Positions 8,626-32,000 of a stretch of DNA of 32,000 nucleotides are shown one piece after another. A model generated the notes under the pieces. It saw only the letters and a list, made by a program, of their open reading frames with translations. It made no database searches and had not been told where the DNA came from. Position numbers and translations under genes: made by a program. Each line of letters opens with the position of its first letter. Within the stretch, counting starts at the first letter, position 1. The stretch spans positions 360,001 through 392,000 of the forward strand of contig CP042461.1 in NCBI GenBank assembly GCA_004563595.2. Reading direction: 5' to 3'. Origin of the DNA: Candidatus Saccharimonadota bacterium. Its GTDB lineage: Bacteria > Patescibacteriota > Gracilibacteria > BD1-5 > UBA6164.

Positions 8626-8628
8626 AAC

Positions 8629-9165: not shown

Positions 9166-9229
9166 GAATAGTAATTTAAAATGTATATATCTATACTATA
9201 ATACTATAAAAATTAAATGAAAGCAAAAA

Positions 9230-9257: not shown

Positions 9258-9326
9258 GTCTCTTGACAGGTGTTGCAAAGATATGAAATTGCAGCATTTT
9301 TTTATTACTTTTTATATAAAGGATTT

Positions 9327-9509
9327 ATGATAAAATTTTTTAGTGAATCTCTGAGAGAATTACGTCATGTTGTTTGGCCAACATATACAGAAACAAGAAA
9401 ATACTTTTTGATTGTTTTAACGGTACTTGTTTTATTTGGGGTATACTTGTTTGTGGCAAGTTCATTATTTTCAGAGATTATATTTTCTGTTAAAGATATT
9501 GTTTCTTAA
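9327..9509 (+). CDS. secE: Preprotein translocase subunit SecE, 60 aa
   Basis: MIKFFSESLRELRHVVWPTYTETRKYFLIVLTVLVLFGVYLFV has the SecE signature (ELKKVxWPTxxE followed by a single TM). It is immediately upstream of nusG, as in most bacteria. I prefer ATG 9327 to the in-frame GTG 9270 from the ORF track. Confidence 0.8.
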   Translation: MIKFFSESLRELRHVVWPTYTETRKYFLIVLTVLVLFGVYLFVASSLFSEIIFSVKDIVS

Positions 9510-9572
9510 AGACTTCAATATTGCATTCTTAAAAGAAAACGTATTTGATATTTGATAATTTTTTAAAATTTT

Positions 9573-10106
9573 ATGATTAATAAAGCAGAGTGGTATGTAA
9601 TTCAAGTAATTTCTTGAACTGAGGAAAATGTAAAACAATCAATTTTTCAAAGAAGAGAAAGTTTTTGACTTGAAGATCATATTTTAGATGTTTTTGTTCC
9701 TACTCATGATGTAATATCTGTAAGAGCAACTGGAGCACAAGTTAAAAAAAAGAAAAACCTTTTACCAGGTTATATTCTTGTTCAAATGGTGGTTACAAAT
9801 GAAAGTTGGTATATAGTAAGAAATACCCCTAATGTAACAGGGTTCCTTTGAGCTTGAAATATTCCAGTACCAGTATCTGGAGAAGAATTAGAGAAGTTAA
9901 AGTGAAAGCTAAAAGAAAATGCAGAGACTTTCGAAACAAAGTATCAAGTATGAGATATTGCAACTATTATGAAATGACCATTTGAGTGAAATGAAGGGAA
10001 TATAATTGATGTAAATGAGAAAAAAGGTACAGTAAAAGTAAACATCAACTTACTTTGAAGAGATACTCCTATAGAACTAGACTTTGCGGAAGTAAAAGTT
10101 AAATAA
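9573..10106 (+). CDS. nusG: Transcription termination/antitermination factor NusG, 177 aa
   Basis: MINKAEWYVIQVISGTEENV...LLPGYILVQM...VRNTPNVTGFLGAG form the NGN domain. The C-terminal KOW is VGDIATIMKGPFEGNEGNIIDVNEKKGTVKV. Stop TAA 10104-10106. Confidence 0.9.
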
Positions 10107-10122
10107 TATGTAACTTGTATTT

Positions 10123-10788
10123 ATGAGAAAGCTTATTCATATATTGTTTATTTTCATCATTATCTTTTTTGTTAACTTTATTTTTTATTTTATATCAGAT
10201 GATTATAAATTTTTTCTAAAAAAAATTAAAGATAGTGATAGTATTATATATACAGAGGAAAAGATAGTAAATGATAACTTTGAAATTGATGATATCTGAG
10301 AATCAAATATAGTAACAGTCAAGCCAGCTCTATCAGAAAGTACAGAGCATGAAATAAGCACTCAAGTAGTTTTGGGAAACAACTATAAAGAAATAAGATA
10401 TTTATTCTCTGAATATGATTTGAAAAAAATCGAATTAAATGCAAATATTTTTGATATTACAAATGAGTACCCAGATGTATATTATGAATATTATGGACAA
10501 GATCTCACACTCTACTTCTTCACTTCAAAAACTTATACAGAAGTACAAGATATATTTCAGGTATTAGAATATGAACTTCCTATACAATTAAATGAGTTAA
10601 ATAACTTTTGAGATTCTTCTTTTTATATCAATTTAAACGAAGATATCAAAGATAGATTTGTTAGAATTATATTAGAAATTAATGGGGTAGTTGTCTGATT
10701 AAAAGTTAAAAGAGATAATTACAATGATATAAAACAAAAATTAATAAACTTTAATAATCCTGAACAGAATATTAATAAAGAGAAATAA
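10123..10788 (+). CDS. Hypothetical N-terminally membrane-anchored protein, 221 aa
   Basis: ATG 10123 to TAA 10786-10788. N-terminal TM LIHILFIFIIIFFVNFIFYFI. It is in frame with track ORF 10372-10611 and continues through TGA codons. I recognise no family. Confidence 0.6.
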
Positions 10789-10817
10789 AAAATATTTTAA
10801 TATTTTACCGTAAATAT

Positions 10818-11291
10818 ATGTCAAAAACAGTTTATTTAACAAAAGAGTGATTAAAAAACTTAGAACAAGAATTTGATACTTTAAAAAATGTAACAAGAGT
10901 TGAGATTGCAGCAAAACTTAAGGAAGCAATTTCATTTTGAGATTTATCTGAAAATGCTGAATATGAAGAGGCAAGAAATGAACAAGCTCAAGTAGAATTA
11001 AGAATTACAGATGTCGAAAGTCAATTAAAAAATGTGGAACTTATTGATGAGAATATTGATCATGATAAAGTTACTATGGGGACAATTGTAATGTTACAAA
11101 ATGTATCTGACAAGAAAAAAGAAACTTATAAAATTGTTGGTTCAACGGAAGCTAATATTTTAGCTGAACCACCTATGATTTCTAATGAATCTCCTGTATG
11201 AAAGGCAATTTTATGAAAAAAATCATGAACTACTGTAAAAGTAAATGCTCCATCAGGAAAATTTGAGTATAAAATTATTGAAATTAAATAA
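10818..11291 (+). CDS. greA: Transcription elongation factor GreA, 157 aa
   Basis: [63 protein letters not shown] is the classic GreA N-terminal coiled coil. Both GDLSENAEY and the G of KEG use TGA. Confidence 0.9.
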
Positions 11292-11313
11292 TATATATTA
11301 ATAAAAAGGAAAG

Positions 11314-11733
11314 ATGAATCAGATGAACTTTTTTTATGAAAATTTATTAATTATTCCATTTATAACTTTTTTTCTTACCGTTATATGAAAGGGGATATTG
11401 ATAAAGATAAAGACTGGGAAGGTAGAAATATCTCAATCTTTTGGAAGTTGAGGTATGCCATCTGTTCATTCTTCGGTAGTTGTTTCACTTGCAACGGCTA
11501 TAGCATTAAAACATGGAATAGCATCAGATTATTTTGCTCTGGCTATTACTATGACAGTTATTATTATTTATGATGCAATTAATGTTAGATATGAGGCATG
11601 ATTACATGCTTCTGCTATTAATACGCTTCTTTGAAAAGTGAAGTTCAAAGAATCATTGTGACACTTACCTTCAGAAGCATTTGCAGGAAGTATGTTATGA
11701 ATATTTATTGCGACACTTATGTATTATATGTAA
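11314..11733 (+). CDS. Divergent PAP2 / DUF212 (YuiD-like) membrane protein, 139 aa
   Basis: ATG 11314 is preceded by aaagga. The motif GSGGMPSVHSSVVVSLATAIAL matches the DUF212 GGMPSSHSA motif. Multiple TM segments. TAA 11731-11733. Confidence 0.75.
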
Positions 11734-14846: not shown

Positions 14847-14912
14847 TGCTTTAATGTTACATTAAGGTTTTAAGATACTATAATTTATAGTTTATATTCA
14901 TAAAAATATCAT

Positions 14913-16019
14913 TTGCCTACAAAAGTTAACACAAAAGCCCGTATTAATAGACATTTAAGAATTTTCAAAGACGATATATGAATTTCTAAGAAAAATAAAA
15001 AGACGAATCAATCATATACTTTTATACTTTTTGTAATTCTATTACTAACACCTATTTATCCTAGCTTTGCTTCATTTATTCATAATAATAATCAGTTTAA
15101 TTTTGATAGGGGAGATATAGATGAACAATCAATTATCTGATCATATTATTGAGACAATGAAGAAGAAGATGAAGATACGCCTATTTTGGAATCATCGGAT
15201 TCATTTCTATCAGTAAATACTATACTTGATGATGAGAGAGATCTATCATGAACAAATGAGATATTAGATTATGAAGTAAAGCCATGAGAATCATTTTATT
15301 CTATAGCTTATAAGTTTAAAGTTTCAACAAATTCAATTTATTGGGCAAATAATTTTTCTAAGAATCATACTCTTCAACCAGGTGATATATTAAAAATACC
15401 ACCAGTATCAGGATTAATTCATCAAGTTAAAAAATGAGAGACACTCTCAGCTATTGCTAAAAAATATGATGTAGATGAAGATAAGATAAAAAGTCAGAAC
15501 CTTCTTTCTATCTGAGAAACTCTACAAGCTTGAGAAGTTCTTGTGATTCCTGGAGCGATTAAAAAATCTCCAAAACCTATATACAAAAAACCAACGAGCT
15601 ATGCAAAAACATCAGCAAAATCATGATACAAATTTGCGCAAGCTGCGAAGAGTCAATATACAACTAATAAAGGTTCTTACAATTTGATATGGCACAAACC
15701 TCAATCATGAGCTGCTTGAAATTGTACGTGGTATGTAGCATCTTATAAAAAGGTAAATTGGAGATGAAACGCAAATAGATGGATGGCAAATGCGAGAGCA
15801 AAATGACATGCAACTTGAAGTGCACCAAAAGTTTGAGCAATCGTACAGTTTACAGGGAGATGATACAATCCAAGATATGGTCATGTGGCTATTGTAATGG
15901 ACTTAAAGGATGATTATATGATAGTAAGTGATATGAACTACAGAAGGTTATACGAAGTGACTTACCGTAAAGTACCAGTAAATGATAGATCAATAGATTG
16001 ATATATTTATATAGACTAA
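14913..16019 (+). CDS. Secreted peptidoglycan hydrolase: 2x LysM + C-terminal CHAP/NlpC-P60-type amidase/peptidase, 368 aa
   Basis: The frame opens after TAA 14901 and there is no in-frame ATG near the 5' end, so TTG 14913 is the proposed start. TM/signal FILFVILLLTPIYPSFA. LysM 1: YEVKPGESFYSIAYKFKVSTNSIYWANNF...LQPGDILKIP. LysM 2: HQVKKGETLSAIAKKYDVDEDKIKSQN...LQAGEVLVIP. CHAP-like: GNCTWYVASY...GAIVQF...YGHVAIVM. TAA 16017-16019. Confidence 0.85.
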
Positions 16020-16107: not shown

Positions 16108-16136
16108 TTGCGTCTAAAAATTAGTTATGATAAAAT
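16108..16136 (+). promoter_or_regulatory. Candidate promoter for giant surface protein gene (TTGCGT-N17-TAAAAT, TG extended -10)
   Basis: ttgcgt 16108-16113, 17-nt spacer ending in ...tga, taaaat 16131-16136. It lies 30 nt upstream of ATG 16167. Confidence 0.4.
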
Positions 16137-16166
16137 TACAGTAATTATATTATTAATACTTACGAA

Positions 16167-19100
16167 ATGAAGAACACTGTAAACAAATATCTCATTTGAG
16201 CAATTTTACTCTTGAGTTTCACTTTTACATCTGTTAATGCAGAGTGTAATGAATGAGTAGACGGTTGTCTATCTGGTTGGAACCATACATCAAATACTGG
16301 TTCTATTTGGAATAATTGGACATGGTTTAATCCAATGTCAGAATTTGGATGAGTTGGTTTTATGATAAATGAAGATAATCCACTTTGGAGTGGTCCTGCA
16401 TTTAATTGGGCAAATGGATGAAGAATTAGGTCTTTTAGTAAAGGAGCGAATGATGGAGCAGCTGTTACAGCTGCGATAGATCCAGATAATAGAGCACCAA
16501 CTACTACGGTGTGAAGTTCTTTTAAAGTAGTTGATCTACCAGAATCCACAAGTAATGGTGCATCTTGGTGGATGTGGTATGATAGAATATGAATGGCCGC
16601 GAGAGGTCTTACCAATGCAAATACTGATAGAATGAGTTTTTATATAAAAACTGAGGATATGGAACCTCTATCAACACCAACGGGGATTAATATATGGGGA
16701 TATCATGTGGGGACATATTTATGTTGGGATGAAGGGTGTAATGGTGGATGAAGTGGATGAGAAGGTCCAGGGAATCAACATTATTATCACTATCTTGGAC
16801 TGAATCCATGAGCATGGATTCATGTAGAGTTAGATCAACATCCACAACATAGAAGGGATTGAAGCGGACCTGTTTTAGGGAACAATCCATCGTTTATAGA
16901 ATCAGGGAAGAATTATTTTGAAAATATGTCTCGTTTTTACATGGAGATTAGGTCAGCTCAAACTGACACAACTACGATGCATATTGATGAAATGGAGTAT
17001 TATTCGACTCAAGACAGTGTAGAACCAAATCAAAATGATGAATCAGTTACTTCTGTTTGGGTAGGGAATTGGAGAGCAGATGATTATTGGGAGATAGGTT
17101 TTGCTGATAATTCGTTTGGTGAGGATAGTATGAATTGAGACACTTGGTCTACTTTTGAAATAAAGTGGTCAACAAGTCCGATTACAAATGCAAACTATGA
17201 TTCAGCAACACTTATAGAACCAATGTTTTACACAGGAGACCAATATACAGATAAGGGCGTATGAGCAATTCGTAGATCTGATTCTTGGGAAAGAGGAGTA
17301 TGGACACGTTTTGAATTACCAGATTCAGTTGAAATAGAGTGAAATAAATTGTATTTTGCTATAAAAGATATATCTATTATATGAACATGAGCTGGTAATG
17401 ATTACCCTTGGAATAAAAATGATCTTTATACTGCACCAACTGATAATATTAGAATTATTGATTATGTTGTAGGTCCAATTGTTGTTAACCCACTTGAGAT
17501 GACAACAACAGAAGTACCAACAGCAATTTTAAATTCATCATATTCAGAACAAATAAGTATTAAATGATGAGTAGCACCACACATATTTTCAACAACATCA
17601 TCACTTCCAGCAGGTGTAACTCTCTCAAATGCAGGTCTTCTTTCAGGAACACCAACTGAGTTAGGGATATTTAATATTGAAGTAATAGTTGATGACTCTA
17701 ATAGTCCATCAACTCAAATTACAAAGAGTTTTACACTGATGGTGAACCCACCGGAAGTATGTAATGATGGAATAGATAATGATGGAAATGGGAAGATAGA
17801 CTGTGCAGATTATGCCTGTACAGATTGATGTAGTCAATTACTGGTAGACTTTTGAAATAGTGCAATAAATGATACCTTTAGTATTTCAGGTTGGAATACA
17901 GTTTTTAAAGATACTTATACTGGTTATTATAACCAATGAATGACGAATACAGCTGGAACGAATAAAGATTATAACTATCAATGAGTTTCTGGTTCATCAA
18001 TGGAATTTGCAGAATGAGATAGAGTTTTACTCACATGGTATAATAATACGAGTTCTCAGATTACATTTACTCCAAGAATAAGTTTTGATGACAATGATAG
18101 ACCTGTTTCAGGAGTTGCAGGAACATGGTACTCAACAACTCAGTGAGTAATAGAAGCTTGATCATATGGTGTAACAGAGTATGAAGTAACATCAGCAAGT
18201 GCAGGAAATTACACACTTGTAAATACAAATGTGAATTATGAACATAATACAGAACTAATCTTAGATAAGATATCGCTTATTGATGCATGAGCGACTGGAG
18301 GGTGAACAGGGACAGGGGCAACAGATATAACAGCTCCAGTATTATCAAATGGATTTCCAAGTGGAGAACAAATATCAGGAACAACAAATACAACATTAAG
18401 TATATCTACCGATGAGAATGCCTTTTGTAAATATTCAACTGTTGTAAATACAACATATGGATCAATGATAAATAGTTTTTCTACAACATGAGCTCAATCA
18501 CATACAGTAAGTGTATGAGGACTTACAGATGGTGTATCGTATACATATTATGTAAGATGTATTGATGGAGATTCAAATGAAAATACAAATGATTACATCA
18601 TTAGCTTTTCAGTATCGGAAGCTTGAACCCCTACAACTTCTACAGGATTGATACATAATTATCAATTTGATGAAAACACTTGAACGGTTCTTTGAGATGG
18701 TTTTGGTGGACAATGAACTATATCAAATGGTTCTTGGAAAACTGGTCTTATAAATTCTGCAGTAGATTTTGATAATACAACTATTTCATTATGAAATATG
18801 GATGTAACATGAAATGGACTTACTATTTCAGCTTGGGTAAATCCAGATACTTTTGCAATTCATGATGCAAGAATCATTTCAAAAACATCAAGCCCATCTG
18901 AAGCTGACCATTATTGGATGATGAGTACACAAGGTGAAAGTGGAAGATATTATCCTCGTTTTCGTTTAAAATCTGATCAAGAAACAGTAACACTTGTATG
19001 ATATAATGTAGAACTTCAAGCATGAATATGGCAACAGATTACTGTGACATACGATCAGGCAACAATGAAGATCTATGTAAACGGTGTTGAAGCTGGATCA

Positions 19101-22100
19101 TCAACAGCTGCAAACTGACCAGTTGCAACAAATGCTACCATAGAAGCTACCATTTGAGCGAATCCAGATGGATCACGTAATTTTGATGGATCAATTGATG
19201 AATTAAAGATATATGATGAAGCTCTGAGTGCAGTAGATGTACTCACTGATTATAATGATGATATAGCTACTTCATGATATACTCCAGGTACAGGAGGTGG
19301 AAGTGGAGGTACAGGAACGGGAGGTACAGGAGGAGGATGAACAATAGAGTGACCAAATAATCCACTTGCTTGAATTTCAGATCTTAAATATACAGGAGCC
19401 TTTATTATTCCTACATGAACATATGGTGTAGCAGGTACTCCATATTCTGAGGGAAAAATTGCATATAATCCTGATAACCATTCTTTGTTTCTTTCTACAG
19501 TAGATTCAAATAACCCTGATACAGATTTTACTGTTCCAGATTCAGTGTTATGAGAATTTTCTATTCCAAATATCAGTATGAGTGAAGATAGGCTTGACCT
19601 GAGTCCAGCTGTAAATATTCAAGGATTTATTGATTTGTATGATGATGCACCAGCATCAAGTTTAGAGCGTATTTCATGAATGTATTATAAAAATGGTGAA
19701 CTATTTGTAAATGGTTTAGTCTTTTATGATGCAAGTGCAAATGGAACAGATACTTCACTTGTTATTCGTGATGCAAATGCAATGGGATCTTCTCAAATTG
19801 ATGGTATCTTTAAAATGGAGTGAGCCGCAAGAGCGGCATGATGGATTTCTGATATCCCATCTGACTGGCAAACTCCATTTGGAGCGACACAAATATCAGG
19901 GAATGCAAGTAATTTAGCGATTGATAGTCGTAATAGTATGGGGCCAAGTGCTTTTACCTTTGATATAGATACTATCATTGGAAATAACTCTCCAGCTACT
20001 ACGATAGCAACTACTACTATCATGAATTACCCATTAAATGAGTATGGTGCAGAGAGTCATGCTATGTATCCTCAAGATAAATTTCCAAACCTTACTCCAA
20101 ATCAATGGATAGGATGGGAATGAGATAATTATGAAAGTGTAGATTATAATAACATAGATTGGGATAATGATGGTACTTTTGATCATGATAATGATCTATG
20201 GACTTCAAATTCTCATGCTGATTATGGATTTATAATTCCATGAACAAATACCTATGCTGTTTTCTGATCTACAGGAGGTGCAGAAAGTGGTATATGATAT
20301 AAAGTAAAAGAAGAAGATAGAATAAATGTTACACCTGGGAGTTGAAACTGTGCATGACCATGTACTTTTGATGGGAATGATACAAGTAATTTCTATTGGT
20401 TCTTTGATGTAGATGATATGATAGCTGTAAAGAGTGGTGTTATGCAAGCTCATGAAGTAAGACCATATAGTTATTGAGAAATGGTGGTTCCATTTGAAAG
20501 AAGAAATGGTTCACTTCATACGATAAAGTGAGGGAGTTATGATGCTACAACACAAACTTTATATTTATCACTTTCTAAGTATTTAGATCCAAATCCACCT
20601 ACTATTGTTACCTACAATGTTGACCTTTCAAACAATGAAAATAATACAGGAACTGGAACAACTACAGGAACAGGAACATCGGATACAACATCTCCATTTC
20701 TTTCAAATGGGACTCCGAGTGGAGAACAGGTATCAGGAACAACAAATGTAACTTTGAGTGTTTCAACAAATGAAAATGCATTTTGTAAATATTCAACAAC
20801 TTCAAACATAGCATATGGATCAATGACAAACAGTTTTTCTACTACATGAGGTCAGTCACATACTATAAGTGTATGAGGATTCACAGATGGTAATTCATAT
20901 AGATACTATGTAAGATGTATTGATTGATCACTCAATGAAAATGCTTCAGATTATGTAATTAATTTTTCAATAGCAGAACCTTCAAGTGCTGCTGTTCCAC
21001 CGGAAAATAATGTCTGCTTACCTTTAGCAGCCCCGAGTCAAAGTGATACAATCATTAATGTAGTGCCATCTCAAGCTCTTCAATTAAGAGATATTATAAT
21101 GTGAGCACAATCTGACACTACTATCTATCTTGCTGATGGAACATATAATGTGGGAAGTAATTTCCGTTTAGAGTTTACTAATCCAAGAGTTACTGTGAGG
21201 TCTCTTTCTTGAAATAGAGATGCGGTAATTGTTGATGGATGATATAATCAATCATGAGCTGCTGAGATATTTTATGTAAATATTCCAAATATTACTATTG
21301 CGGATATTACGATTCAAAAAGCTTATTATCATCCTATTCATGTAACTTGAAATGGTGATAATGCAAACATATATAATGTAAAAATTATAGATGGTGCGGA
21401 ACAATTTATCAAGATTAACCCTGAAGGAACGAATTACCCAGATAATGGGAGAATTAGTTGTTCATATTTTGAATTGACTGATGCATGAAGTACTCATACA
21501 AGGAATGGATGTTATACTGGGGGAATAGATGCTCACTCTGCACAATGATGGTTTGTTAAAAACAATACTTTTAAAGATATCTATTGTCGTGATAATAGTG
21601 GTATAGCTGAACACGCCGTTCACTTTTGGTCACAAAGTAGAGATACTCATGTTGAATGAAACCTCATGATAAATAATGCTCGTGGTATATGATTTGGTCT
21701 CTGAGCAACTCCTACTACTTGAATAAGGTATTATGCTGATCAACCATTACTTGGAACTTCTTTAACAGAAGCTGATGTACAACATATTGGTTGAGTTATT
21801 CAAAATAATATAGTTTATTGAGATAATTGATCATACTTTGATACTGGTATTTGAGTAGAAAAAGCTCATAATCCAAAAATTTATAATAATACTGTATATA
21901 CAAATAATAATGGGAGTCTTCCACTAGATGCACGTTTTACATCAACAACAGCAGAATTTATAAATAATATTTATTATCCAAATTATTTTTCTATACGTGA
22001 TGGTGCAACGGTAAATGCTTCAAATAATATAAGTGTGTGATCTACGGCCTTTGTAGATATTGCAAACCTTGATTTTAATCTTGTTACAGCTTCAGCCCCA

Positions 22101-25100
22101 ATTAACGCTGGTATTGATGTTGGTATTTCAAACGATTTCATTGGGTTCATAAGAGATGCACAACCAGATATTTGAGCTTTAGAATTTAATTCAGGTGGAG
22201 GATGATGAGATATTACAGCTCCAGTATTATCAAACTGAGCTCCAAGTTGAGAACAATCATCAGGAACAACGAATACAATATTAAGTATATCAACAGATGA
22301 GAACGCATTCTGTAAATATTCTACAACTGCAAATACGACATATGGATCAATGATAAATATATTTGCAACAACATGATTACAATGACATAGTGTGAGTATA
22401 TGAGGACTTTCAGATGGAGTATCATATGACTACTATGTTAGGTGTATAGATTGAAGTGGGAACGAAAATACTTCTGATTATACGATTAGTTTTTCAGTAG
22501 CATCTGGCATTCCAAGTTCAGACCCTACTACAAATCCACTTGCACATATAGGAGACTTTGAATACGTATGATGATTTACTTTTGGTTCAACATCATGAGT
22601 ATCAGACCTAAGTTATACCTCAGGGAAATTTGCTGTAAATCCTGCTTCAAATTCGGTTTTCATAGCCAGTCATACAAATCAAGATGCCTTATGAGAATTT
22701 AGTATTCCTGCGTTATCACTTGATTCAGATTATAATAATCTAAACAATGCAACACAAATACAGGACTTTGATTATGTACGTAATAGAGTATTAAATCCTG
22801 AAGCGCATGACGAATTATGATGAATGGCTGTAATTGGCAATAGTTTGTTATTTCATAGCTATACATATTACGATGCAGGTGGAACTAATGTTTGAACAAC
22901 ATCAGTAGTAAAAAATCTATCAGATCTAAAAAATTCTGTAATAGATGGAATATTTCCACTTGCATGAAGGGCTCATTTAATAAGTTGGGCATCATTGATA
23001 CCAACAGAATGGCAAACACTATTATGATGAGATTATATATCATGATCATCAAGCTCAATACCTATTAATTCGAGATCTAGTATGTGACCAAGTGCGTTTG
23101 CATTTCAATCAGATGATCTTTTGAATGCAACCGATACAAATGTAACTATACCGACTACTAAATTATTAGATTTTGGTTTAAGTAATGTATTAGCAAAGAC
23201 ACCTTCAGGGTGGGCAGAATATTGAGACTGGGATCTATATAATGCAAATGGAGATAATGATTTATGGACGGAAGATTCTTGAGCAGAATATGGATTTATA
23301 ATTCCATGAACCAGAACCTATGCAACGATCTGAATGTCATGAATGCATGAAAGTGGAGGATGATACAAGATTACTCAATCAGGTGCAACAGAAGCATGTT
23401 GATGACCATGTGCCTATGATCCACTTGATATGTATAACTATATATGGTTATGGGATGTAAATGATTTCTTAGATGTAAAAAATGGATTAAAACAATCATA
23501 CGAAGTAAAACCATACCAATATGGAAAATTTAATACTCCATTTGAATATAGACTCAATGGAACAAGAAAAAACTTAATTGCTGGTTGATCATATGATGAT
23601 GTATCAAACACATTGTATTTGAATTTAAACAGAGCAGATGGAGAGAATCATGCTGCTTGACCAGTAATCCTTGCCTACAAGATAAATGCGGTAGTAGATA
23701 CTACAGCAGCTATACTTTCAAACGGAACTCCAACTGGAGAACAAGCCTGAGGAACAACGAATGTAAATCTGGCACTTGATACTGATGAGAATGCAACATG
23801 TAAATATTCTACCGTTGCAAATACAGTATTCACAAGTATGACAAATACATTTACTACGACGTGAAATACATCACATTCTACAAATGTAACATGATTAACA
23901 GATGGGAATTCATATACATATTATGTAAGATGTATAGATGGGTATTTGAATGAAAACACAATAGATTACACACTCAATTTTTCAGTAGCGAACACTCCAG
24001 ACACAACAGCACCGATTCTTTCGAACGGAACCCCAAGTGGAGAACAAGCCTCAGGAACAAGTAACGTGAATCTGATACTCGATACCGATGAAAATGCAAC
24101 ATGTAGATACTCTCCAAATGCAAACACATCATATTGAGCAATGTGAAATACATTTACAACCACAGGGAATACAACACATACTACAAAAATTACATGACTG
24201 ACAGACGGAACATCACATACGTATTATGTAAGATGTATGGATGGAAATTCTAATGCAACAATAACAGATTACACACTGAACTTCTCTGTAGCGAATACTC
24301 CAGACACATGAGCACCATTTTTAAGTAATGGACTTCCAAATGGAGAACAAGCTTCAGGAACAACAAATGTAAATCTAACATTAGATACGAATGAAGCATC
24401 AACATGTAAATACTCAACAGTAGTAAATACAACGTATTCATCAATGACAGATATATTTACAACAGGAACCTGAGGAATCACACATACAGCAAATATAACA
24501 TGACTTACAGATGGAACATCACACGCATACTATGTAAGATGTATGGACACTGATTCAAATGAAAATACAATAGACTATACAATTAACTTTTCAGTAGCCA
24601 CAGCAAGTACAAATAGCTGATGAAGTTCATCAGGCTGAAGTTCAAGCTGAGGTTGAGGAGGTTGATGATGAGGATGAGGAAGTTATATCCCAACCTGTAA
24701 AGACGAACAACTCACATGTAAACTGATTCCATGATCGACAACGACTTACAAATGGTATGTACAAGACGAAGTATCATGTAAATATGGGAAACTATGAAGT
24801 CTCTGTTGAGAAGAAGATGTAGTAGAGTTGAATAGTGGATGAACATGAACATGAAGTAGTACAGACAGTACATGATGATGAACATTGAAGAAATACCATT
24901 CAGAAATGACAATCCTTCAATTGATAGAGAAGAGAGTGGACAAAGTAATCGAACAAAAGAAGAAAGATAATGATGACAAAGTAATAGAATACAGAAATGC
25001 TTTTATCAAAGACGTAGAGAATTATATATTAGCCAGACAAGCGAAACAAAGTACAAGAGAACACAAAGTGAAGATACTCGCAACGTTCAAACTCTTTGCA

Positions 25101-25409
25101 AAAGAGTTGAAGAAAGATAGGCTTGCTAAAACAAGTGAAAAGAAGAAATCTACCATAAAGAAATACATAGCTGTACACGAGGCAGTGTATACGCTTTGAG
25201 ATAGACTTGATAGCTTGATAATAAAGTACAATAAGGAGTCGAGTATAAAAGTGTTGTTTTTTAAGAATAAGTTGTTAAAAAGTATGGATTCATACATCAC
25301 AACAAAGAAGAACAAAGAAAAAGGGATAAATTACAAGATTAAATTAAAGATATTAAAAAGTAATATCGGAAAAACTTACAAAATATTCTTGAAAGGATTA
25401 AAGTCTTAA
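16167..25409 (+). CDS. Giant mosaic secreted surface protein, 3,080 aa
   Basis: I read every codon from ATG 16167 to TAA 25407-25409. There is no TAA/TAG in frame, and many TGA codons fall at Gly-like positions. Signal peptide MKNTVNKYLIGAILLLSFTFTSVNA. Domain order by eye: N-terminal ~430-aa domain; He_PIG-like Ig (LPAGVTLSNAGLLSGTPTELGIFNIEV); CNDGIDNDGNGKIDCADYAC motif; ~160-aa CBM-like domain; module R1; LamG/ConA-like domain (...NFDGSIDELKIYDEALSA); Gly linker; ~420-aa unknown domain A; R2; ~400-aa right-handed beta-helix-like domain; R3; domain A' (paralog of A); R4-R5-R6; Gly/Ser linker; small 4-Cys domain; ~175-aa Lys-rich tail. Confidence 0.85.
18330..18614 (+). repeat. 95-aa two-Cys beta-sandwich-like module, copy R1 (type A)
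   Basis: TAPVLSNGFPSGEQISGTTNTTLSISTDENAFCKYSTVVNTTYGSMINSFSTTGAQSHTVSVGGLTDGVSYTYYVRCIDGDSNENTNDYIISFSV. Confidence 0.85.
20688..20972 (+). repeat. 95-aa module, copy R2 (type A)
   Basis: TSPFLSNGTPSGEQVSGTTNVTLSVSTNENAFCKYSTTSNIAYGSMTNSFSTTGGQSHTISVGGFTDGNSYRYYVRCIDGSLNENASDYVINFSI. Same length and register as R1. Confidence 0.85.
22215..22499 (+). repeat. 95-aa module, copy R3 (type A)
   Basis: TAPVLSNGAPSGEQSSGTTNTILSISTDENAFCKYSTTANTTYGSMINIFATTGLQGHSVSIGGLSDGVSYDYYVRCIDGSGNENTSDYTISFSV. Long stretches are identical to R1 at the nucleotide level. Confidence 0.85.
23703..24596 (+). repeat. Tandem array of three modules (R4-R6, type B), exact 303-nt period
   Basis: Module starts are at 23703, 24006 and 24309. 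Each reads (T/G)A(A/P)xLSNGxPxGEQAxGTxNVNLxLDTxEx(A/S)TC(K/R)YS...TGLTDG(N/T)S(Y/H)xYYVRCxD...DYT(L/I)NFSV, joined by ANTPD(T) linkers. Confidence 0.9.
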
Positions 25410-25554: not shown

Positions 25555-27447
25555 ATGACAAAACATAATTTTGAAGCAGAAACTTGAAAAGTATTAGAGC
25601 TTTTAACGCATTCGATTTACTCAAACAAAGAAATATTTTTAAGGGAATTGATTTCTAATTCTGCTGATGCGATTGATAAAGCAAGAATAAAATCATTAAC
25701 TGATACAACATTTTTAGGGGATGACAGTAAATTTGAAATTAAAATAAGAGTAGACAAAGAAAAAAATCTATTAATCATTGAGGATAATGGTATATGAATG
25801 ACAGCAGATGAACTTCATAAATGTATCTGAACAATTGCAAAATCATGAACATCAGAGTTTGTAGAAAAATTGAAAAAAGCAAAAGAGAATGCTGATAATA
25901 ATCTAATCTGACAATTTTGAGTCGGGTTTTATAGTGCTTTTATGGTGGCAGATAAAGTAGAATTAGAAACAAAATCTCCACTTGATGCAAAATCTCATAA
26001 ATGGATTTCAGATTGAAAATCAGAATATGAAGTAATTACATCAGAAAAAGAATCAAGAGGAACTATAGTAAAGTTATTTATTGATGAAGCAAATAAAGAA
26101 TTATTAGAAGAATGGAAGGTGAAAGAGCTCGTAAAAAAGTATTCAAACTACGTATGAGTACCAATTTTGATGGATATTGAAGAAAAAGATGATTCTGGAA
26201 AAGTAACGTGAACGAAACAAACGCAAATAAATGAGACAAAATCAATATGGACAAAGAGTAAATCAGAAATAAAAAAAGAAGAATATAATTCTTTTTACAA
26301 AACGACCTCAATGGATTTTAATGACCCATTGACTCACTTACATAATAATGTTGAAGGAGCTGTTAGCTATAAGTCATTGTTATATATCCCTTGTGAAACA
26401 AATATGTTTGCTGATATACGTGATCCTAATAAAGAATATTGACCAAAATTATATGTAAAAAATGTTCTTATTTTAGAAAATTCAAAAGAACTCCTTCCTG
26501 TGTGGCTTAGGTTTATATCAGGTGTAGTCGAAACTTCTGATATACCTTTAAATGTGAGCAGAGAAATGCTTCAATCAAACACAGTGTTAGATAAAATAAA
26601 AAAAGGTCTTACAAAAAAAGTAATTTCAGGAATGAAAAAATCACTTGAAAATGATACTGAAAATTATAATAAATTCTTGGAGAATTTCTGACAAGTATTA
26701 AAAGAATGAATATATTATGAATGAGATTTAAAAGAAGAAATCGCAGGAGTGGTAAAATTCAAAAGCTTACTACAAGGTAAAAATATTACTTTAGATGCAT
26801 ATTTAGAAGCTTGTAAAAGTACAGAAAAAAAAGAAATATATTATATAGTTTGAAAGAGCGAAGCAGAGGTTTTATCAAGTCCATATTTAGCACAATTTAG
26901 AGAAACTTCAACAGATGTTATACTATTTACTGACCCTATAGATGCATTTATAGTTCAAGCATTTACTGAATATAAATGACATAAGTTAAAGTCAATAACT
27001 GCAGGTGATATTCAATTAAAAGAAGAATCACAAGAAGAAAAAGAGAAAACGGAAAACACTAAAAAAGATTTTAAAGATTTCTTAGAACTCACAAAAAATA
27101 CTATTGGTTCTGATATACTTGAAAAAGTAGAATTAAATGAGAATTTGTGAGATGCGCTTTGAGCTCTAAAAACCCCAACAAATTGAGTGAATCCTCAAAT
27201 GGAAAAAATGATGAAATCAATGTGACAGGAAGTGCCAGTTCAAAAGAGAATTTTAGAATTGAATCCAAACAATGGATTAGTAAAAATAATGAAACAAGAA
27301 TTTCAAAATAATATAAAATCTGATAAATTACAAGAGATGATGAGTTATGCTTATGATCAAGCTATCCTTTTAGAAGGTTGAGAACTTGAAAATATGTGAG
27401 AATTTATTAAAAAAGTAAATAAATTCGCAGGGAATTATTTAAAATAG
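25555..27447 (+). CDS. htpG: Molecular chaperone HtpG (Hsp90), 630 aa
   Basis: [53 protein letters not shown] and [19 protein letters not shown] are all present, with conserved glycines written as TGA. TAG 27445-27447. Confidence 0.95.
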
Positions 27448-27588: not shown

Positions 27589-28914
27589 ATGAGAAAGCAA
27601 AATATAAATGGGCTTACATTTGTAGAGTTAATTGTTGTTATGGTAGTTGTGGCTATACTTTGAACAATGTGAATAGTTACATTTCAGTGATATTCGAAAG
27701 ATACAAGAGATACTGCTAGAGTAAGTGACTTAGAGCAAATTGATCAAGGTTTAGAGCTATATTTTGCAACTGAGTGAGATGTACCACTTCCAGAAAATAG
27801 TATAGAGATTACAGCTACTGGGAAAATAGTACAGTACCAATGAGATATACCAGATATTACTCTCTCCCTTATTTGATTTCAATGAAAAGGAGTAGATCCC
27901 AAAGATTGAACTCATTATGTATATACATCAGATGGGAAAAATTTTCAATTAATGTGACTTCTTGAGCAGGATAATTGAAATACGGCTATTTGAAAAAGGT
28001 ATCCTTTTTTTAAAGGATGAAAGCTAGGAATATTTATTGACAATACTACAGGTGAATCAATCCATGAAATATGAACAGGTATTGATTTAATTAGTACTAG
28101 TACAGTGTATAAGGTTTATGATAGTAATAATAAAAATGATTATTTTACTTGATCATCAGATACCTTATCAAGAAAGTTATCATATAGAATCAATGGAACT
28201 GCAAACTGTAAGGAAATATTAGAAAAGTGAGTAACAACTTTAGATGGAACATACACTACTGCTATAAGAGATGATGTCCCCATATCCGAGGTATACTGTG
28301 ATATGACTACTGATTGAGGTTGATGGACAGCTGTTGTAATGCTTGCAGATAACACGACTGTAAATATGTTTAAAACATGAACATCATGACTGGTCCCCTC
28401 TGTTACAGAAGATATATCGACTACTTGAGACCTAGGTTACTTTTGGGTTGATGATGAAAATAAAGATATATTGATGCGTTGATGGTCAAGTATGGGGGAG
28501 ATTGAAGACATATACAATTCTTGATCAGTGATTTATAATTTCATGAAAAGAGATTTAGAAAATTTAACACAACAGAAAAAACAAAATGATGCAACAGGGA
28601 AAGGAGAGAGATTTTCCAGCATTCCACTTACTCTGAAGTATATCAATAATTGACAGGAATTCCAAAGTTATACATACTGGTGAGAATCTGCATGAAGTAA
28701 AAATTCACATTATATTATGATTTCTGAACACGTATATTTTATAGATTTGTTTAAATGAAATGGCTACAATAACTGATGTCATAATGATGCTGAAACAGGA
28801 ACGGGGACAGTGTCATCAGATTTCTATGATTATATACAAACAGGACCTAGTCTAAATGAGCCATGTGCTTTGTATTTTAACTCACAAAACTACATGGTCG
28901 TATTCTTAAGATAA
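27589..28914 (+). CDS. Type IV pilin fused to a fibrinogen-related (FReD-like) globular domain, 441 aa
   Basis: ATG 27589 to TAA 28912-28914, every line checked in frame. The N-terminus MRKQNINGLTFVELIVVMVVVAILGTMGIVTFQGY is a prepilin motif. From about aa 205 the sequence reads NCKEILEKGVTTLDGTYTTAIRDDVPISEVYCDMTTDGGGWTAVVML, the hallmark CxEIxxxG...G.Y.I...VYCDMxTDGGGWT motif of fibrinogen C-terminal domains. Two of the three GGG glycines are TGA. Confidence 0.8.
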
Positions 28915-28943: not shown

Positions 28944-31900
28944 ATGTATAAAAAAAATAAAACACTTATAAAAAAAATATTTACTCTCTGACTTATTTTT
29001 TGATCAACTCTCTCAATAGTAGATGCAAGCATGATAGCAGATTATGATAATGGCTGGATAGAAAATGCGGCTGAAAGTCGTCTTGAAGACTCTTCAAGTA
29101 CAGTTTGGACTACTCTAGATACTGGTCATGGTAATCAGAATATGAGCATAGATCCTTCAGGGTGAGTGAGTTGAGCTGCAGCTAAAGTTGATGTAGTTAG
29201 TTACTGAAGTGATGGTCTATTTAAGATATATTTTGCCTATGATGAAGATAGATATACTACGCTAGATGCACCAGATGGGACAAACAGAATGGTCTTATAT
29301 ACTACTATTCCATACTCAGGTGATGGAAATGAACACACGTTTCATATTGGTACCTATTCTAAAGACCCTGCAACGGCAGCTTCGACATCAAATGTAGGGA
29401 ATCACTGGTATCATTACTATGAGTTAAGAGGGAATGATAAAAATTATTGGACGAAAATGTATATGGATACACGTCCTCAGCATGTGGTAGGTGATTCCGA
29501 AAATGCGCCAGAAACGAACCCTACAGCCACTGACGGGTTTAACTACTTTGATGGACTTACAAGGTTATATATACAGATGAGATATTCTCCGTTTGAATCT
29601 AACTGGCCCGGACCGTATACTATGTTTGTAGATGAAATAGAATTTTATGATGAAACAAGAGTAGAAAATGATTATAGTATCAACAGTGTTGCTATAACTT
29701 ATTTTGGTTCTTGAGAATTTGATATAGATTGGAGTTCATTTAGTCCATATGATATTCATAGTGAGACTTTTGAAGTAAGATATTCGCTAAACCCAATAGA
29801 CACAATAGATGACTATTTAGCCTCATCAATTGTACCCGGAAGTCCAGCATGAGGACGGGGGCAAGAAAATATAGGCCATCATGACAATCATTATAGAGCA
29901 AATTTTCAAATTTCTGGTATTGATGAAACAAAGAAGTATTATTTTGCAATTAGAGATTTATATGCGTCTCATCCACAAGATTTAAAAAGAGTTGATTATG
30001 AAGTATTGAATGCTCCAGCACCCATGTATTTAGGTTTCTCATCAAGTAATTTGCTCAACGGTGAAAAAGATTTGTTTTACGCATTTCAACTTGAATGAAA
30101 ATGAGGAAAATCACCATATACATATTCCACTACATCTCAACTTCCTGCATGACTCATGCTTACAAGTGGGTGACTTATATCAGGTATACCTACAGAGTGA
30201 GGAACTTTTAATTTAGATATTACTATCCAAGATTCAGATTCTCCACAGACAAGTGTCCAAAAAACTTTTGTTCTTTATATTAGCGTACCAGAAATTTGTA
30301 CCGATGGAATTGATAATGATGGAAATTGATCAATAGATTGTAATGATCCAATCTGTGTTGGAAATGCTGCATGTGAAGGTTCTGGAGGAGTGTCACTTAT
30401 TAATTTTGGTGATAGTGCAGCAAATAACGTTTTTGGTTTAAGTGGTTGGGATACTGTATTTTTAGATAATTATACAGGCTATTATAATCAATGATCAACC
30501 ATTGTGACAGGTAATAATTCGAATTACAATTACCAAGGGCTGAGTGGTACCTCAAGAACTTTTATAGAAGATGATAAGGTTTTTGCTACTTGGTATAATG
30601 ATGGTCTTTCAAGTATGACCTTTACTCCGTTGGTAAGTTTTACAGACCCTGATAGAAAATGATCAGGAGCTATTCCTACGGGATGGTATGAAATGTCTGA
30701 AGTGACAATTCCTGCTCAGAATTATGGAATTTCAGAGTTTGTTTTTGATACTTCAAATATTTGAGACTATAGTCTTGTAAATGTGAATGTAAATGAGGAT
30801 AATAGTAGCATATTGCTTCTTGATCAAATTTGACTTATTCCAACAGGATCAGTACCAACAGATACAACTGCTCCAGTATTATCAAATGGAGTTCCAAGTT
30901 GAGTCCTTTGATCAGGGACAACAAACACAACGCTCAGTATATCTACAAATGAGAACGCATTTTGTAAATATTCTACAACTGCAAGCACAGTATATGGATC
31001 AATGATAAATACATTTGCTACGACATGATCACAGTCGCATAGTATGAGTATATGAGGACTTATTGATGGAACATCATATACATACTATGTAAAATGTATT
31101 GATTGAGATTCTAATGAAAATACATCAGACTATATAATAAATTTTTCAGTGGCTAATGCTTGAGACATTATAGCTCCTGTACTATCAAATGGAACTCCTA
31201 TAGGAGAACAGGTATGAGGAACAATAAATGTAATTTTAGGGGTTGATACGGATGAAAATTCGACTTGTAAATACTCAACAGTAGTAAATACAGCGTATCC
31301 ATCAATGACAGATACATTTACAACCACATGAAATACAAATCATACAACAAATATTACATGACTTACAGATGGAGCATCATATACATATTATGTAAAATGT
31401 ATAGATGGATCAAGTAATGAAAATATATCAGATTATATAATTAATTTTTCAGTAGCGAATGCTTGAGATACCACAGCTCCTGTGCTATCAAATGGAGCCC
31501 CAGTTTGAGTTCAATCTTCTGGAACAACAAACGTGAATGTGGCATTGACTACGGATGAAAATGCAACATGTAAATATTCAACAGTAGTAAATACAACGTA
31601 TGCATCAATGACAGATACATTTACTACGACATCAAATATAGCTCATAGCACAAATATTACATGACTTACAGATGGAGCATCATATACATATTATGTAAGA
31701 TGTATAGATGGATTAAGTAATGAAAATACATCAGATTATGCTATTAGTTTTTCAGTAGCAATTGAATCTTCAGGTTCGTACTCTGCTATGCTTTCAACAT
31801 TTGAAGTATGATGAAATGAAATATATACATGACCAAGTGCTGATCAAGTAACACGTGTACAAGACAATTATAAATGGATTCCATATCAGTGAGGAAGTTC

Positions 31901-32000
31901 ATATGCACCTACACGGGGATATCTTGAAATAGATGATACAACTGGTGCGAAGTGAAGTAGTGGAAGTTTGAAATATGTTTCAACATGAGGAAGATCTAAT
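28944..32000 (+). CDS. Second giant mosaic surface protein, paralog of 16167-25409 (3' end outside the window; >1,018 aa)
   Basis: ATG 28944 lies 30 nt after the pilin stop with no terminator between. The frame was checked to 32000 with no TAA/TAG. Signal MYKKNKTLIKKIFTLGLIFGSTLSIVDA. The N-terminal architecture matches giant 1: N-domain (HIGTY...HWYHYYEL...MFVDEIEFYDE), He_PIG-like Ig (LPAGLMLTSGGLISGIPTEGGTFNLDI), CTDGIDNDGNGSIDCNDPIC, a CBM-like domain, then three 95-aa modules. Confidence 0.85.
30867..31757 (+). repeat. Tandem array of three 95-aa modules in giant 2 (one type A then two type B), exact 303-nt period
   Basis: Module starts are at 30867, 31170 and 31473. The first copy (TAPVLSNGVPSGVLGSGTTNTTLSISTNENAFCKYSTTASTVYGSMINTFATTG...) is close to R1/R3 of giant 1. 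Copies 2 and 3 resemble R4-R6. Confidence 0.9.

What the first reader, a model, noticed from the sequence alone, without database searches (positions are those of the whole stretch)
28944..32000. Second giant gene is a paralog with the same N-terminal domain order but a different downstream cassette
Giant 2 repeats the first ~700 aa architecture of giant 1 at low sequence identity. This architecture is the N-domain with the H(V/I)GTY...HYYH(Y)(L/E) and (M/F)xxDE(M/I)E(Y/F)Y motifs, a He_PIG-like Ig, the CxDGIDNDGNGxIDC motif and a CBM-like domain with GWxTVFxDxYTGYYNQG. In contrast, its first 95-aa module is clearly more similar to R1/R3 at the nucleotide level than the flanking domains are. 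This pattern suggests module shuffling or gene conversion between the two loci, about 12 kb apart on the same strand, which could diversify surface proteins.
Basis: partly seen in the sequence, partly recalled or inferred. Interest (0 to 1): 0.65.

Follow-up and report, generated by a model that had tools for sequence, protein, structure and literature searches.

The report
Mosaic giant adhesin genes swapping cassettes
Two giant surface-protein genes of an uncultured Gracilibacterium (which reads TGA as glycine) are built from three unrelated sugar-binding-type "heads" on a shared stalk of Ig-like modules, and the stalk segments have moved between the two genes, with at least one junction inside a module.

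Summary
Under genetic code 25 (TGA=Gly), G2 (28944->32000, open) repeats G1's order: head, He_PIG, acidic disulfide motif, unannotated 150-aa domain, 94-aa Ig-like module. Pre-module identity is 28-51% aa with saturated silent sites (dS ~1.5). Module M1 is 79-80% nt identical to R1/R3 (dS 0.6-0.7).

The excess is not specific to M1: nearly all module pairs show it, and a GENECONV-style test finds no tract in M1.

The stronger evidence lies outside the window. An identical public contig (L035) extends G2 by 3.3 kb and shows a second head-He_PIG-Cys-domain-module unit. It is followed by a block 83% nt identical over 1.6 kb to G1's R3-D2-R4 (dS 0.61, falling to 0.10), directly next to a domain with dS 1.54. 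The junction lies inside module M4 (p=0.0015).

The "different cassette" at the window's end is the start of this second head. The three heads are 28-38% alike, but each has a closer relative elsewhere (45-72%). The closest is in a gammaproteobacterium, apparently from the same sample series.

Inter-gene exchange is supported, but it is old and segmental. There is no sign of ongoing variation.

The parts
16167..25409 (+). Giant gene G1, complete, 3080 aa under code 25. Order: signal peptide, head (N-domain), He_PIG, acidic disulfide motif, 150-aa domain, R1, LamG, D1, R2, beta-helix-like region, R3, D2, R4-R5-R6, Gly/Ser linker, Cys-rich region, basic C-terminal tail.
   Evidence: Pfam Laminin_G_3 E=1.6e-26; the only strongly hydrophobic segment is the N-terminal signal, and the last 155 aa hold 42 K/R against 17 D/E.
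28944..32000 (+). Giant gene G2, 5' part (1019 aa in the window). It continues to at least 2132 aa on the identical contig L035.
   Evidence: no TAA or TAG in 2132 codons.
28950..30005 (+). G2 head Na (aa 3-354, signal peptide included). It belongs to a rare, unannotated N-domain family.
   Evidence: 67.7% identical over aa 3-354 (71.6% over the mature domain) to P0015/OUR99168.1 of a standard-code gammaproteobacterium. Only 28-30% identical to the G1 head. TGA makes up 5 of 26 Gly codons.
30015..30284 (+). G2 He_PIG Ig domain (unit A).
   Evidence: Pfam PF05345, E=1.9e-9, 38 bits against a cutoff of 24.
30291..30374 (+). Acidic double-disulfide motif, CTDGIDNDGNGSIDCNDPIC.
   Evidence: NCBIfam NF033662, E=7.1e-9, 35.3 bits, below the curated whole-protein cutoff of 41.
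30393..30839 (+).
   Evidence: 51% aa identity to G1 558-712 with dS 1.55; no Pfam hit.
30870..31151 (+). Module M1, type A, 94 aa, Ig-like.
   Evidence: 79.1% nt identity to R1 and 79.8% to R3; dS 0.72 and 0.61; groups with R3/M4.
31173..31757 (+). Modules M2 (31173-31454) and M3 (31476-31757), type B, in tandem.
   Evidence: 83% nt identity to each other, dS 0.34, bootstrap 91; best Sawyer-type signal, p=0.0016 uncorrected.
31776..32000 (+). Start of the second head Nb (G2 aa 945-1316, continuing on L035 8133-9248).
   Evidence: P0029 residues 27-394 align to G2 945-1314 at 67%.
16242..18302 (+). G1 unit: head (16242-17489), He_PIG (17490-17747), Cys motif (17748-17837), 150-aa domain (17838-18302).
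   Evidence: The G1 head is 45-49% identical to P0066, P0107 and P0052.
18333..18614 (+). G1 module R1 (type A).
20691..20972 (+). G1 module R2 (type A).
22199..23829 (+). G1 block R3 (22218-22499), D2 (22539-23696) and the start of R4. This block is shared with G2 unit B.
   Evidence: blastn gives 83.8% over 1644 nt to L035 10067-11697. D/D2 silent-site z=8.9, dS 0.61. R4/M5 is 96% nt identical, dS 0.10.
23706..24596 (+). G1 tandem type-B modules R4 (23706-23987), R5 (24009-24290) and R6 (24312-24596).
   Evidence: type-B clade bootstrap 100.

Best explanation
G1 and G2 are secreted, multi-domain cell-surface proteins of a Gracilibacterium (code 25), most likely glycan-binding adhesins used to contact other cells. 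Both are assembled from one kind of unit: head, He_PIG Ig domain, acidic disulfide motif, 150-aa domain, then a 94-aa Ig-like module. The unit occurs three times: once in G1 and twice in G2 (units A and B).

Shown:
- The three heads belong to different subfamilies of a rare lectin-like family, modelled as a CBM-type jelly roll plus an fn3-like subdomain. Each has closer relatives in other, standard-code organisms.
- The downstream stalk segments are shared between the genes and fall into at least three age classes: dS at or above 1.3, about 0.6, and 0.1-0.3.
- The boundary of a younger tract lies inside a module (M4).

Inferred:
- The conserved 94-aa modules act as homology patches for non-allelic recombination or gene conversion. 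This moves cassettes (modules, and the R3-D2-R4 block) within and between the two genes.
- The heads were imported by horizontal transfer and fused to the stalk.
- The result is several binding specificities on a common scaffold. This happened in episodes over evolutionary time, not as a fast switching system.
For: Code and genes.

Colinear architecture.

Module family and its two types.

Silent-site heterogeneity inside the window: 114 observed against 114.1 expected before the module, against 50 of 73 where 36 were expected for R1/M1. dS is 1.5 against 0.6-0.7.

Extension of G2 from contigs 100% identical to the window.

Second unit, and the 1.6-kb block at 83% nt identity to G1 R3-D2-R4.

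Sharp change of history at equal protein identity: Cys+150-aa domain of unit B against G1 is 77% aa with dS 1.54. The adjacent D/D2 pair is 79% aa with dS 0.61, and M5/R4 has dS 0.10.

M4 breakpoint: 17 of 31 informative sites are R3-like, then 22 of 22 (permutation p=0.0015).

Intergenic sister pairs: R3-M4 (bootstrap 97) and R4-M5 (96% nt).

Heads: 28-38% identical to each other, but 72%, 70% and 45-49% to outside proteins. P0015 is from a gammaproteobacterium and lies in a Wzx/Wzy/glycosyltransferase cluster.

TGA-Gly share is 0.19 in Na against 0.60 in ordinary genes.

Fold models: head pLDDT 88.9 with CBM4/22/28/30 matches; module pLDDT 86.9 with an Ig-like fold.

Close relatives (HtpG 84%) keep HtpG and the pilin gene but have no G1/G2.

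Context of type IV pilus genes and a LysM-CHAP hydrolase. Giant surface proteins are proposed as host-attachment factors in the sister lineage (PMC8080830).
Against: - No related code-25 genome carrying these genes was found, so there is no cross-genome test of positional orthology or module copy number.
- No discrete conversion tract passes multiple-test correction among the in-window modules.
- Three assemblies are identical, so no population-level variation is seen. They may derive from the same or sister samples.
- The 5' part of M4 is not clearly R1-like, so a simple R1 x R3 deletion is not shown.
- Modules have lower GC3, so part of their silent-site identity could be codon bias. With a module-specific codon null, z drops to 2.2-3.1.
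- Function is inferred from folds and context only. Fold matches for the head are weak (E about 1e-4, TM 0.3-0.57).
- Head-to-donor dS is saturated, so the transfers are not recent.
- The 3' end of G2 is unknown.
Confidence: 0.65

Rival explanations
1. One-off construction. The shared segments are leftovers of a few old segmental duplications and gene fusions made when the genes were built (copy-paste of blocks). There is no gene conversion and no continuing role of the modules as recombination sites, so the locus is now static.
For: All shared tracts are diverged (dS at or above 0.1). No significant tracts in the Sawyer-type test. Three assemblies are identical.
Against: At least three distinct age classes, and a junction inside a module, need several separate events that targeted the same elements. 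Both intragenic (M2-M3, R4-R5) and intergenic (R3-M4, R4-M5) young pairs exist.
Confidence: 0.22
2. No exchange at all. A single whole-gene duplication occurred, and the modules simply look more alike because the protein and codon usage are more constrained there.
For: Modules have dN/dS about 0.2 and low GC3. With a module-specific codon null, the excess for M1 weakens to z=2.2-3.1.
Against: Unit B's 150-aa domain is as conserved in protein as D/D2 (77% against 79% aa), yet its dS is 1.54 against 0.61. M1 does not group with its positional partner R1. The heads have closer relatives outside the genome. M4 has an internal breakpoint.
Confidence: 0.06
3. A programmed antigenic or phase-variation system of the MgPar/TprK/VlsE/pilS type, in which frequent gene conversion between the two loci switches exposed epitopes.
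For: A small-genome, host-dependent bacterium; repeated homologous cassettes in two nearby same-strand genes.
Against: No silent, promoter-less cassette array: both are long intact ORFs. No near-identical tracts longer than 68 nt. No variation among three assemblies. No recombinase or reverse transcriptase was noted among the window's ORFs.
Confidence: 0.05
4. Assembly artefact: repeats caused mis-joins, so the G2 extension or the G1/G2 similarity is chimeric.
For: Repeat-rich giant genes are prone to misassembly (general knowledge; also noted in bioRxiv 10.1101/2023.11.21.568195).
Against: JGI, ENA and Logan assemblies agree base for base over 6.3-10.3 kb, including the extension. The copies differ by 4-30%, too much to collapse. 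The reading frame stays open for 2132 codons.
Confidence: 0.02

Closest known systems
Giant cell-surface proteins of code-25 CPR predators (Vampirococcus lugosii, Absconditabacteria; PMC8080830)
   Same: Sister lineage with the same genetic code. Several proteins above 1400 aa carry fibronectin/PKD-type adhesion domains, are encoded alongside many type IV pilus genes, and are proposed to mediate host recognition and attachment.
   Different: That paper does not describe this head family, the unit architecture, or segment exchange between giant genes. Here the lineage is Gracilibacteria, by HtpG relatives.
Modular repeat adhesins with Ig-like extender domains and ligand-binding tips (Bap/Esp/Rib-alpha C, SiiE, LapA/MpIBP) (own knowledge)
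   Same: Long stalks of near-identical Ig-like modules plus lectin-type binding domains. Recombination between repeats changes the architecture.
   Different: No RTX/T1SS, LPXTG or autotransporter signature was found by Pfam in the complete G1. The modules are interspersed between functional domains and are shared across two genes. The heads are N-terminal and also internal.
Segmental gene-conversion systems for surface variation (M. genitalium MgpB/C-MgPar, T. pallidum TprK, Borrelia VlsE, Neisseria pilE/pilS) (own knowledge)
   Same: Non-reciprocal transfer of segments between paralogous sequences in host-dependent bacteria with small genomes.
   Different: Donors here are intact expressed-type ORFs, not silent cassettes. 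The tracts are old (dS 0.1-0.7), and no within-population variation is seen.
Mosaic phage receptor-binding proteins and tail fibres (own knowledge)
   Same: Exchangeable receptor-binding heads on conserved shafts, junctions at conserved linker modules, and heads often related to host glycan-handling proteins. The best fold hit of the head is a haloarchaeal virus turret protein, followed by CBMs.
   Different: This is a chromosomal cellular gene between HtpG and housekeeping genes. There are no phage genes in the window.
Cellulosomal / CAZyme modular proteins with CBM jelly rolls and fn3 spacers
   Same: CBM4/22/28/30-like fold for the head. Some family members carry dockerin or T9SS tails. G1 carries a LamG domain.
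   Different: No catalytic glycoside-hydrolase or lyase family was detected. The beta-helix-like region has only a weak choice_anch_Q hit.

Membership tests
Genetic code 25 (Gracilibacteria/Absconditabacteria) | TGA read as glycine | tested here: met
   Conserved Gly positions in Walker A and the ABC signature are TGA. 5 of 5 TGA codons in head Na align with Gly in a standard-code homolog. HtpG relatives are named Candidatus Gracilibacteria.
Pfam He_PIG (PF05345) | Score above the gathering threshold (24 bits) | tested here: met
   38.4, 38.2 and 40.8 bits for the three Ig segments.
NCBIfam NF033662 acidic double-disulfide repeat | Score above the curated cutoff (41 bits, whole protein) | tested here: inconclusive
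   35.3 bits, E=7.1e-9, covering profile positions 5-32 of 32. There is a single copy, so it falls below a cutoff set for multi-repeat proteins.
Fibronectin type III / Ig-like E-set (94-aa modules) | Profile match above the cutoff, or a seven-strand beta-sandwich fold | tested here: inconclusive
   The fn3, Pur_ac_phosph_N, DUF7800 and Y_Y_Y hits are all below their cutoffs. The model of a 56%-identical homolog has pLDDT 86.9 and matches Ig-like domains with probability 1.0 and TMq 0.5-0.6. The fold is met, but sequence-family membership is not.
Carbohydrate-binding module (head) | Jelly-roll fold matching a CBM family; glycan binding | tested here: inconclusive
   The model of the 66%-identical proxy P0001 has pLDDT 88.9. 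CBM4, 30, 28 and 22 match at E 1e-4 to 6e-3 with TMt 0.33-0.57. No Pfam family matches. Binding is not testable here.
   No Pfam hit at E up to 1 and no PDB sequence hit. The structure could not be predicted, because the tool refuses code-25 translations.
Gene conversion (GENECONV/Sawyer criterion) | A run of shared polymorphic sites longer than permutations allow, after multiple-test correction | tested here: not met
   In-window modules: best p=0.0016 (M2-M3), which is not significant after correction for 36 pairs; M1-R1 p=0.13.
Recombination mosaic (breakpoint / maximum chi-square criterion) | A significant switch of nearest relative along the sequence | tested here: met
   M4: 17 of 31 informative sites R3-like, then 22 of 22, permutation p=0.0015. 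dS steps from 1.54 to 0.44-0.61 to 0.10 along unit B. M1 alone is not significant (p about 0.10).
Cassette-type antigenic variation systems | Silent donor cassettes and sequence variants within a population | tested here: not met
   Both genes are long intact ORFs. Three assemblies show 0 mismatches.
RTX / T1SS giant adhesins | RTX nonapeptide repeats and a C-terminal T1SS signal | tested here: not met
   No such Pfam hits in the complete G1. G1 has an N-terminal Sec-type signal peptide and a basic helical C-terminus.
Diversity-generating retroelement targets | A nearby reverse transcriptase and a template/variable repeat pair | tested here: not met
   No reverse transcriptase was recognised among the window's ORFs. 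Part of them were scanned with Pfam and the rest were read by eye, so this check is partial.

The most novel reading that the evidence does not exclude
The Gracilibacterium captures lectin-like head domains from the surface-polysaccharide loci of the bacteria it lives on. One head is 72% identical to a protein in the Wzx/Wzy cluster of a gammaproteobacterium that appears to come from the same sample series. It mounts these heads on a shared, recombination-prone Ig-module stalk. The giant-gene pair would then be a cassette system for acquiring and reshuffling host-recognition specificities, and the heads would point to the unknown hosts of Gracilibacteria.
Probability: 0.15. Interest if true: 0.85.

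Novelty: new variant of a known kind. Interest (0 to 1): 0.55.

Why it matters
Gracilibacteria have no cultured member, and their hosts and attachment mechanisms are unknown. This locus gives a concrete, testable picture.

- **Candidate host-recognition domains.** Three different lectin-type heads sit on a common stalk. They can be expressed and screened for binding.
- **A possible host lead.** One head's nearest relative lies in the O-antigen/capsule-type cluster of a gammaproteobacterium from what seems to be the same sample series.
- **Evolution of giant surface proteins.** In reduced genomes they can evolve by exchanging whole cassettes through short, conserved Ig-like modules.
- **A practical warning.** The public gene calls for this genome use code 4 (Trp at TGA). 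That corrupts about 3-4% of residues and hides homology.

Tried and rejected
- **Table-11 tools.** The ORF listing and translate are unusable here. All proteins were translated in Python with table 25.
- The look-up of encoding contigs and structure prediction refuse code-25 translations. A table-11 fragment of G2 is not on record. The workaround was P0170, the HtpG called under code 4, which led to L035-L037. Permitted homologs (P0001, P0164) served as structural proxies.
- **Searches for relatives.** The genome-contig scan found only two distant gammaproteobacterial loci. The metagenome scan found 27 loci, all standard-code and none with modules. A module-profile search returned only six short fragments, and the contig of P0166 is not a relative. 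No cross-genome test of module number was therefore possible.
- **Strain comparison.** It failed because the three assemblies are identical.
- **Relatives with 84% HtpG.** They lack the giant genes.
- **M1 mosaic test.** Not significant.
- **R1 x R3 deletion.** A simple deletion origin for unit B is not supported by the 5' part of M4.
- **Recent head transfer.** Rejected: dS to the outside homologs is saturated.
- **Sample provenance.** Literature searches for the sample identifiers and for the MAG name found nothing.
- **Unannotated domains.** Pfam, NCBIfam and PDB sequence searches gave nothing for D1/D2 or the 150-aa domain.
Full report
**1. Genetic code and gene models**

Under table 11 the 32-kb window has a single ORF of 150 aa or more. 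With TGA as a sense codon, 24 ORFs cover it. They include a 3091-codon frame at 16134-25409 and a frame open from 28881 to the window end.

TGA stands at invariant glycines: Walker A reads GPT-x-S-x-KTT and the ABC signature reads LSG-x-QRQRL. So the code is 25, not 4. Later, all five TGA codons in G2's first head aligned with Gly in a standard-code homolog. HtpG relatives are named Candidatus Gracilibacteria.

G1 is 16167-25409 (3080 aa).

**2. The observation**

G2 133-811 aligns colinearly with G1 179-889 at 40% identity, E=2e-150. All quoted motifs are present.

- The Ig segment is a true He_PIG domain (38-41 bits against a cutoff of 24).
- The Cys motif matches NCBIfam's acidic double-disulfide repeat (E=7e-9).
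- The 150-aa 'CBM-like' domain has no match anywhere, so that label is unverified.

The window holds nine 94-aa modules: R1-R6 in G1 and M1-M3 in G2. They form two types. Type A is R1, R2, R3 and M1, interspersed between other domains. Type B is R4-R6, M2 and M3, in tandem, with bootstrap 100.

M1 is 79.1% nt identical to R1 and 79.8% to R3. The pre-module segments are 47-64% nt identical: head 47%, He_PIG 52%, 150-aa domain 59%, and the 30-codon Cys motif 64%. blastn sees only the modules and two short motif islands.

**3. Constraint or younger ancestry?**

I compared codon identity at positions with the same amino acid against the expectation from codon usage.

| Comparison | Same-codon matches (observed / expected) | z | dS (NG86, code 25) |
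|---|---|---|---|
| Pre-module, G1 vs G2 unit A | 114 of 220 / 114.1 | 0 | 1.52-1.55 |
| R1 vs M1 | 50 of 73 / 36 | 3.6 | 0.72 |
| R3 vs M1 | 53 of 73 / 35.6 | 4.4 | 0.61 |

So M1 did coalesce with G1's modules later than the scaffold did.

There are four caveats:
- Nearly all 36 module pairs, within and between genes, show the same silent-site excess (0.3-0.47), so M1-R1/R3 is not special.
- A Sawyer/GENECONV-type permutation test finds no tract for M1 (p=0.13), and nothing survives correction. The best signal is M2-M3 at p=0.0016.
- With a conservative module-specific codon null, the M1 signal drops to z=2.2-3.1.
- M1 shows no significant internal mosaic (p about 0.10).

In the module tree, M1 groups with R3/M4 (bootstrap 77) rather than with R1, its positional counterpart.

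**4. Extending G2**

The collection's gene calls for this genome use code 4. P0170 is the window's HtpG with Trp at each TGA, which gives 97% 'identity'. Looking up P0170 returned three contigs from JGI, ENA and Logan. They are 100% identical to the window over 8357, 6984 and 6313 nt. L035 and L036 agree at all 10,274 overlapping bases.

L035 adds 3340 nt to G2, which stays open for at least 2132 codons. Window coordinate = L035 coordinate + 23643. After M3, G2 contains a second full unit:

| Element | G2 residues | L035 coordinates |
|---|---|---|
| Head Nb | aa 945-1316 | 8133-9248 (begins at window nt 31776) |
| He_PIG | aa 1319-1405 | 9255-9515 |
| Cys motif + 150-aa domain | aa 1406-1585 | 9516-10055 |
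| Module M4 | aa 1596-1689 | 10086-10367 |
| D domain | aa 1690-2090 | 10368-11570 |
| Start of module M5 | aa 2091-2132 | 11571-11696 |

So the window's last 225 nt are not a novel cassette. They are the start of a second head.

**5. Mosaic relationship of unit B to G1**

| Segment (G2 unit B vs G1) | aa identity | dS |
|---|---|---|
| Head | 31% | 1.28 |
| He_PIG | 57% | 0.97 |
| Cys + 150-aa domain | 77% | 1.54 (dN 0.13) |
| M4 vs R3 | 86% | 0.44 (0.56 in the first 66 codons, 0.20 in the last 28) |
| D vs D2 | 79% | 0.61 (silent-site z=8.9) |
| M5 vs R4 | 98% aa, 96% nt | 0.10 |

These values are. blastn reports the R3-D2-R4 block at 83.8% over 1644 nt. The longest identical run is 68 nt, at the M5 end.

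Two adjacent segments have equal protein identity (77% and 79%) but 2.5-fold different dS, so they cannot share one history. At the sites where R1 and R3 differ, M4 is mixed for its first ~200 nt (17 of 31 R3-like) and then 22 of 22 R3-like (permutation p=0.0015). A junction therefore lies inside a module.

There are intergenic sister pairs (R3-M4, bootstrap 97; R4-M5) and intragenic ones (M2-M3, 91; R4-R5, 92). At least three age classes of shared sequence exist.

**6. The heads**

An exhaustive profile search finds the head family in only 303 cluster representatives out of 1.84 billion. Most are stand-alone proteins of 350-500 aa, and no Pfam model covers the domain.

The three heads in this genome are 28-38% identical to each other, and each has a much closer relative elsewhere:
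- Na is 72% identical to P0015.
- Nb is 70% identical to P0029 and 68% to P0028.
- The G1 head is 45-49% identical to P0066, P0107 and P0052.

P0015 is OUR99168.1 of Gammaproteobacteria bacterium 42_54_T18. It is standard-code, GC 40%, and lies inside a Wzx/Wzy/glycosyltransferase/dTDP-sugar cluster. The homology starts at residue 3, so it includes the signal peptide.

That contig comes from ENA ERZ510999. The window's own genome is in ERZ510998 and SRR3580189. I infer a shared sample series from the consecutive accessions and from L002 being identical to L008. I did not verify it.

TGA supplies 60% of Gly codons in ordinary window genes, 39% in the giant genes and 19% in Na. This fits import from standard-code donors, because the reverse direction would create stop codons. 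The transfers are not recent: dS to the outside genes is saturated.

A model of the 66%-identical proxy P0001 (pLDDT 88.9, pTM 0.91) is all-beta. It weakly matches CBM4/22/28/30 jelly rolls plus an fn3-like subdomain. The module proxy folds as an Ig-like sandwich.

**7. Context**

The window also encodes a PilB-type ATPase, three pilin-like proteins (one fused to a fibrinogen-C-like domain) and a LysM-CHAP hydrolase just upstream of G1.

Relatives with 84% HtpG keep HtpG and the pilin gene at about 82% nt identity. They have other genes where G1 and G2 lie, and no G1/G2-like sequence within 17-22 kb. So the giant genes belong to the flexible genome.

Giant surface proteins are proposed as host-attachment factors in Absconditabacteria (PMC8080830). 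Adhesion through surface structures is proposed for Gracilibacteria (PMC11452946).

**8. Interpretation**

Shown: code 25, the architecture, the three-fold unit, heterogeneous silent-site ages, an intra-module junction, and heads that are xenologous to each other.

Inferred: the modules act as recombination substrates, the heads arrived by horizontal transfer, and the proteins are glycan-binding adhesins.

The module it pointed to is the weakest evidence for it. 'Paralog' understates the mosaic. Nothing indicates a fast, ongoing variation system.

**9. Verdict**

This is a new variant of a known kind: modular giant adhesins that evolve by cassette exchange. It has an unannotated head family and a testable lead to host identity. 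Interest 0.55.

Noticed in passing
window 27589-28914 (+): A type IV pilin-like N-terminus (N_methyl motif) is fused to a fibrinogen C-terminal-like domain ('VYCDMTTDGGGWT'; Pfam Fibrinogen_C E=1e-5). The gene lies between HtpG and G2 and is conserved next to HtpG (about 82% nt) in the relatives that lack the giant genes.
   Followed up: partly
window 1-32000, all genes: TGA supplies 60% of Gly codons in ordinary genes (211 of 349), about 39% in the two giant genes, and 19% in head Na. GC is also higher in the giant genes (33-37% against 26-31%), while GC3 is similar.
   Followed up: partly
window 25555-27447 (HtpG); protein P0170: The public gene calls for this genome use code 4 (Trp at TGA). 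The stored HtpG is therefore only 97% identical to the correct code-25 protein, and all stored proteins of this genome carry Trp in place of Gly at TGA positions.
   Followed up: yes
window 19389-20681 (D1) and 22539-23702 (D2), within G1: A ~400-430-aa domain is duplicated inside G1 (40% aa identity, dS 1.3), with a third copy in G2 unit B. It has no Pfam, NCBIfam or PDB sequence match, so its function is unknown.
   Followed up: partly
window 21009-22196, within G1: A beta-helix-like region with only a weak 'choice-of-anchor Q' hit at its C-terminal end (E=1e-4). It could be a polysaccharide lyase or hydrolase-type domain, but that was not established.
   Followed up: no
window 14904-16019 (+): A secreted LysM (two or three copies) plus CHAP peptidoglycan hydrolase lies directly upstream of G1.
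   Followed up: no
window 3276-4586, 5329-5883 (-), 7072-8625: A PilB-type secretion ATPase (T2SSE, E=8e-122) and two further pilin-like proteins. The 516-aa pilin-like protein has a large C-terminal domain with no annotation.
   Followed up: no
window 24597-25406, C-terminus of G1: A Gly/Ser linker encoded mostly by TGA (18 of 26 Gly codons), then a Cys-rich stretch, then a strongly basic, probably helical 155-aa tail (42 K/R against 17 D/E). There is no transmembrane segment. It may be a cell-envelope anchor.
   Followed up: no
L038 = L004 (MAAB01032290.1 / ERZ510999 NODE_4), gene at L038 6001-7143: In the gammaproteobacterium the head homolog is a stand-alone secreted protein inside a Wzx/Wzy/glycosyltransferase cluster, next to an APH-family kinase gene. 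An APH-family gene also neighbours the head-bearing P0002 in L001.
   Followed up: partly
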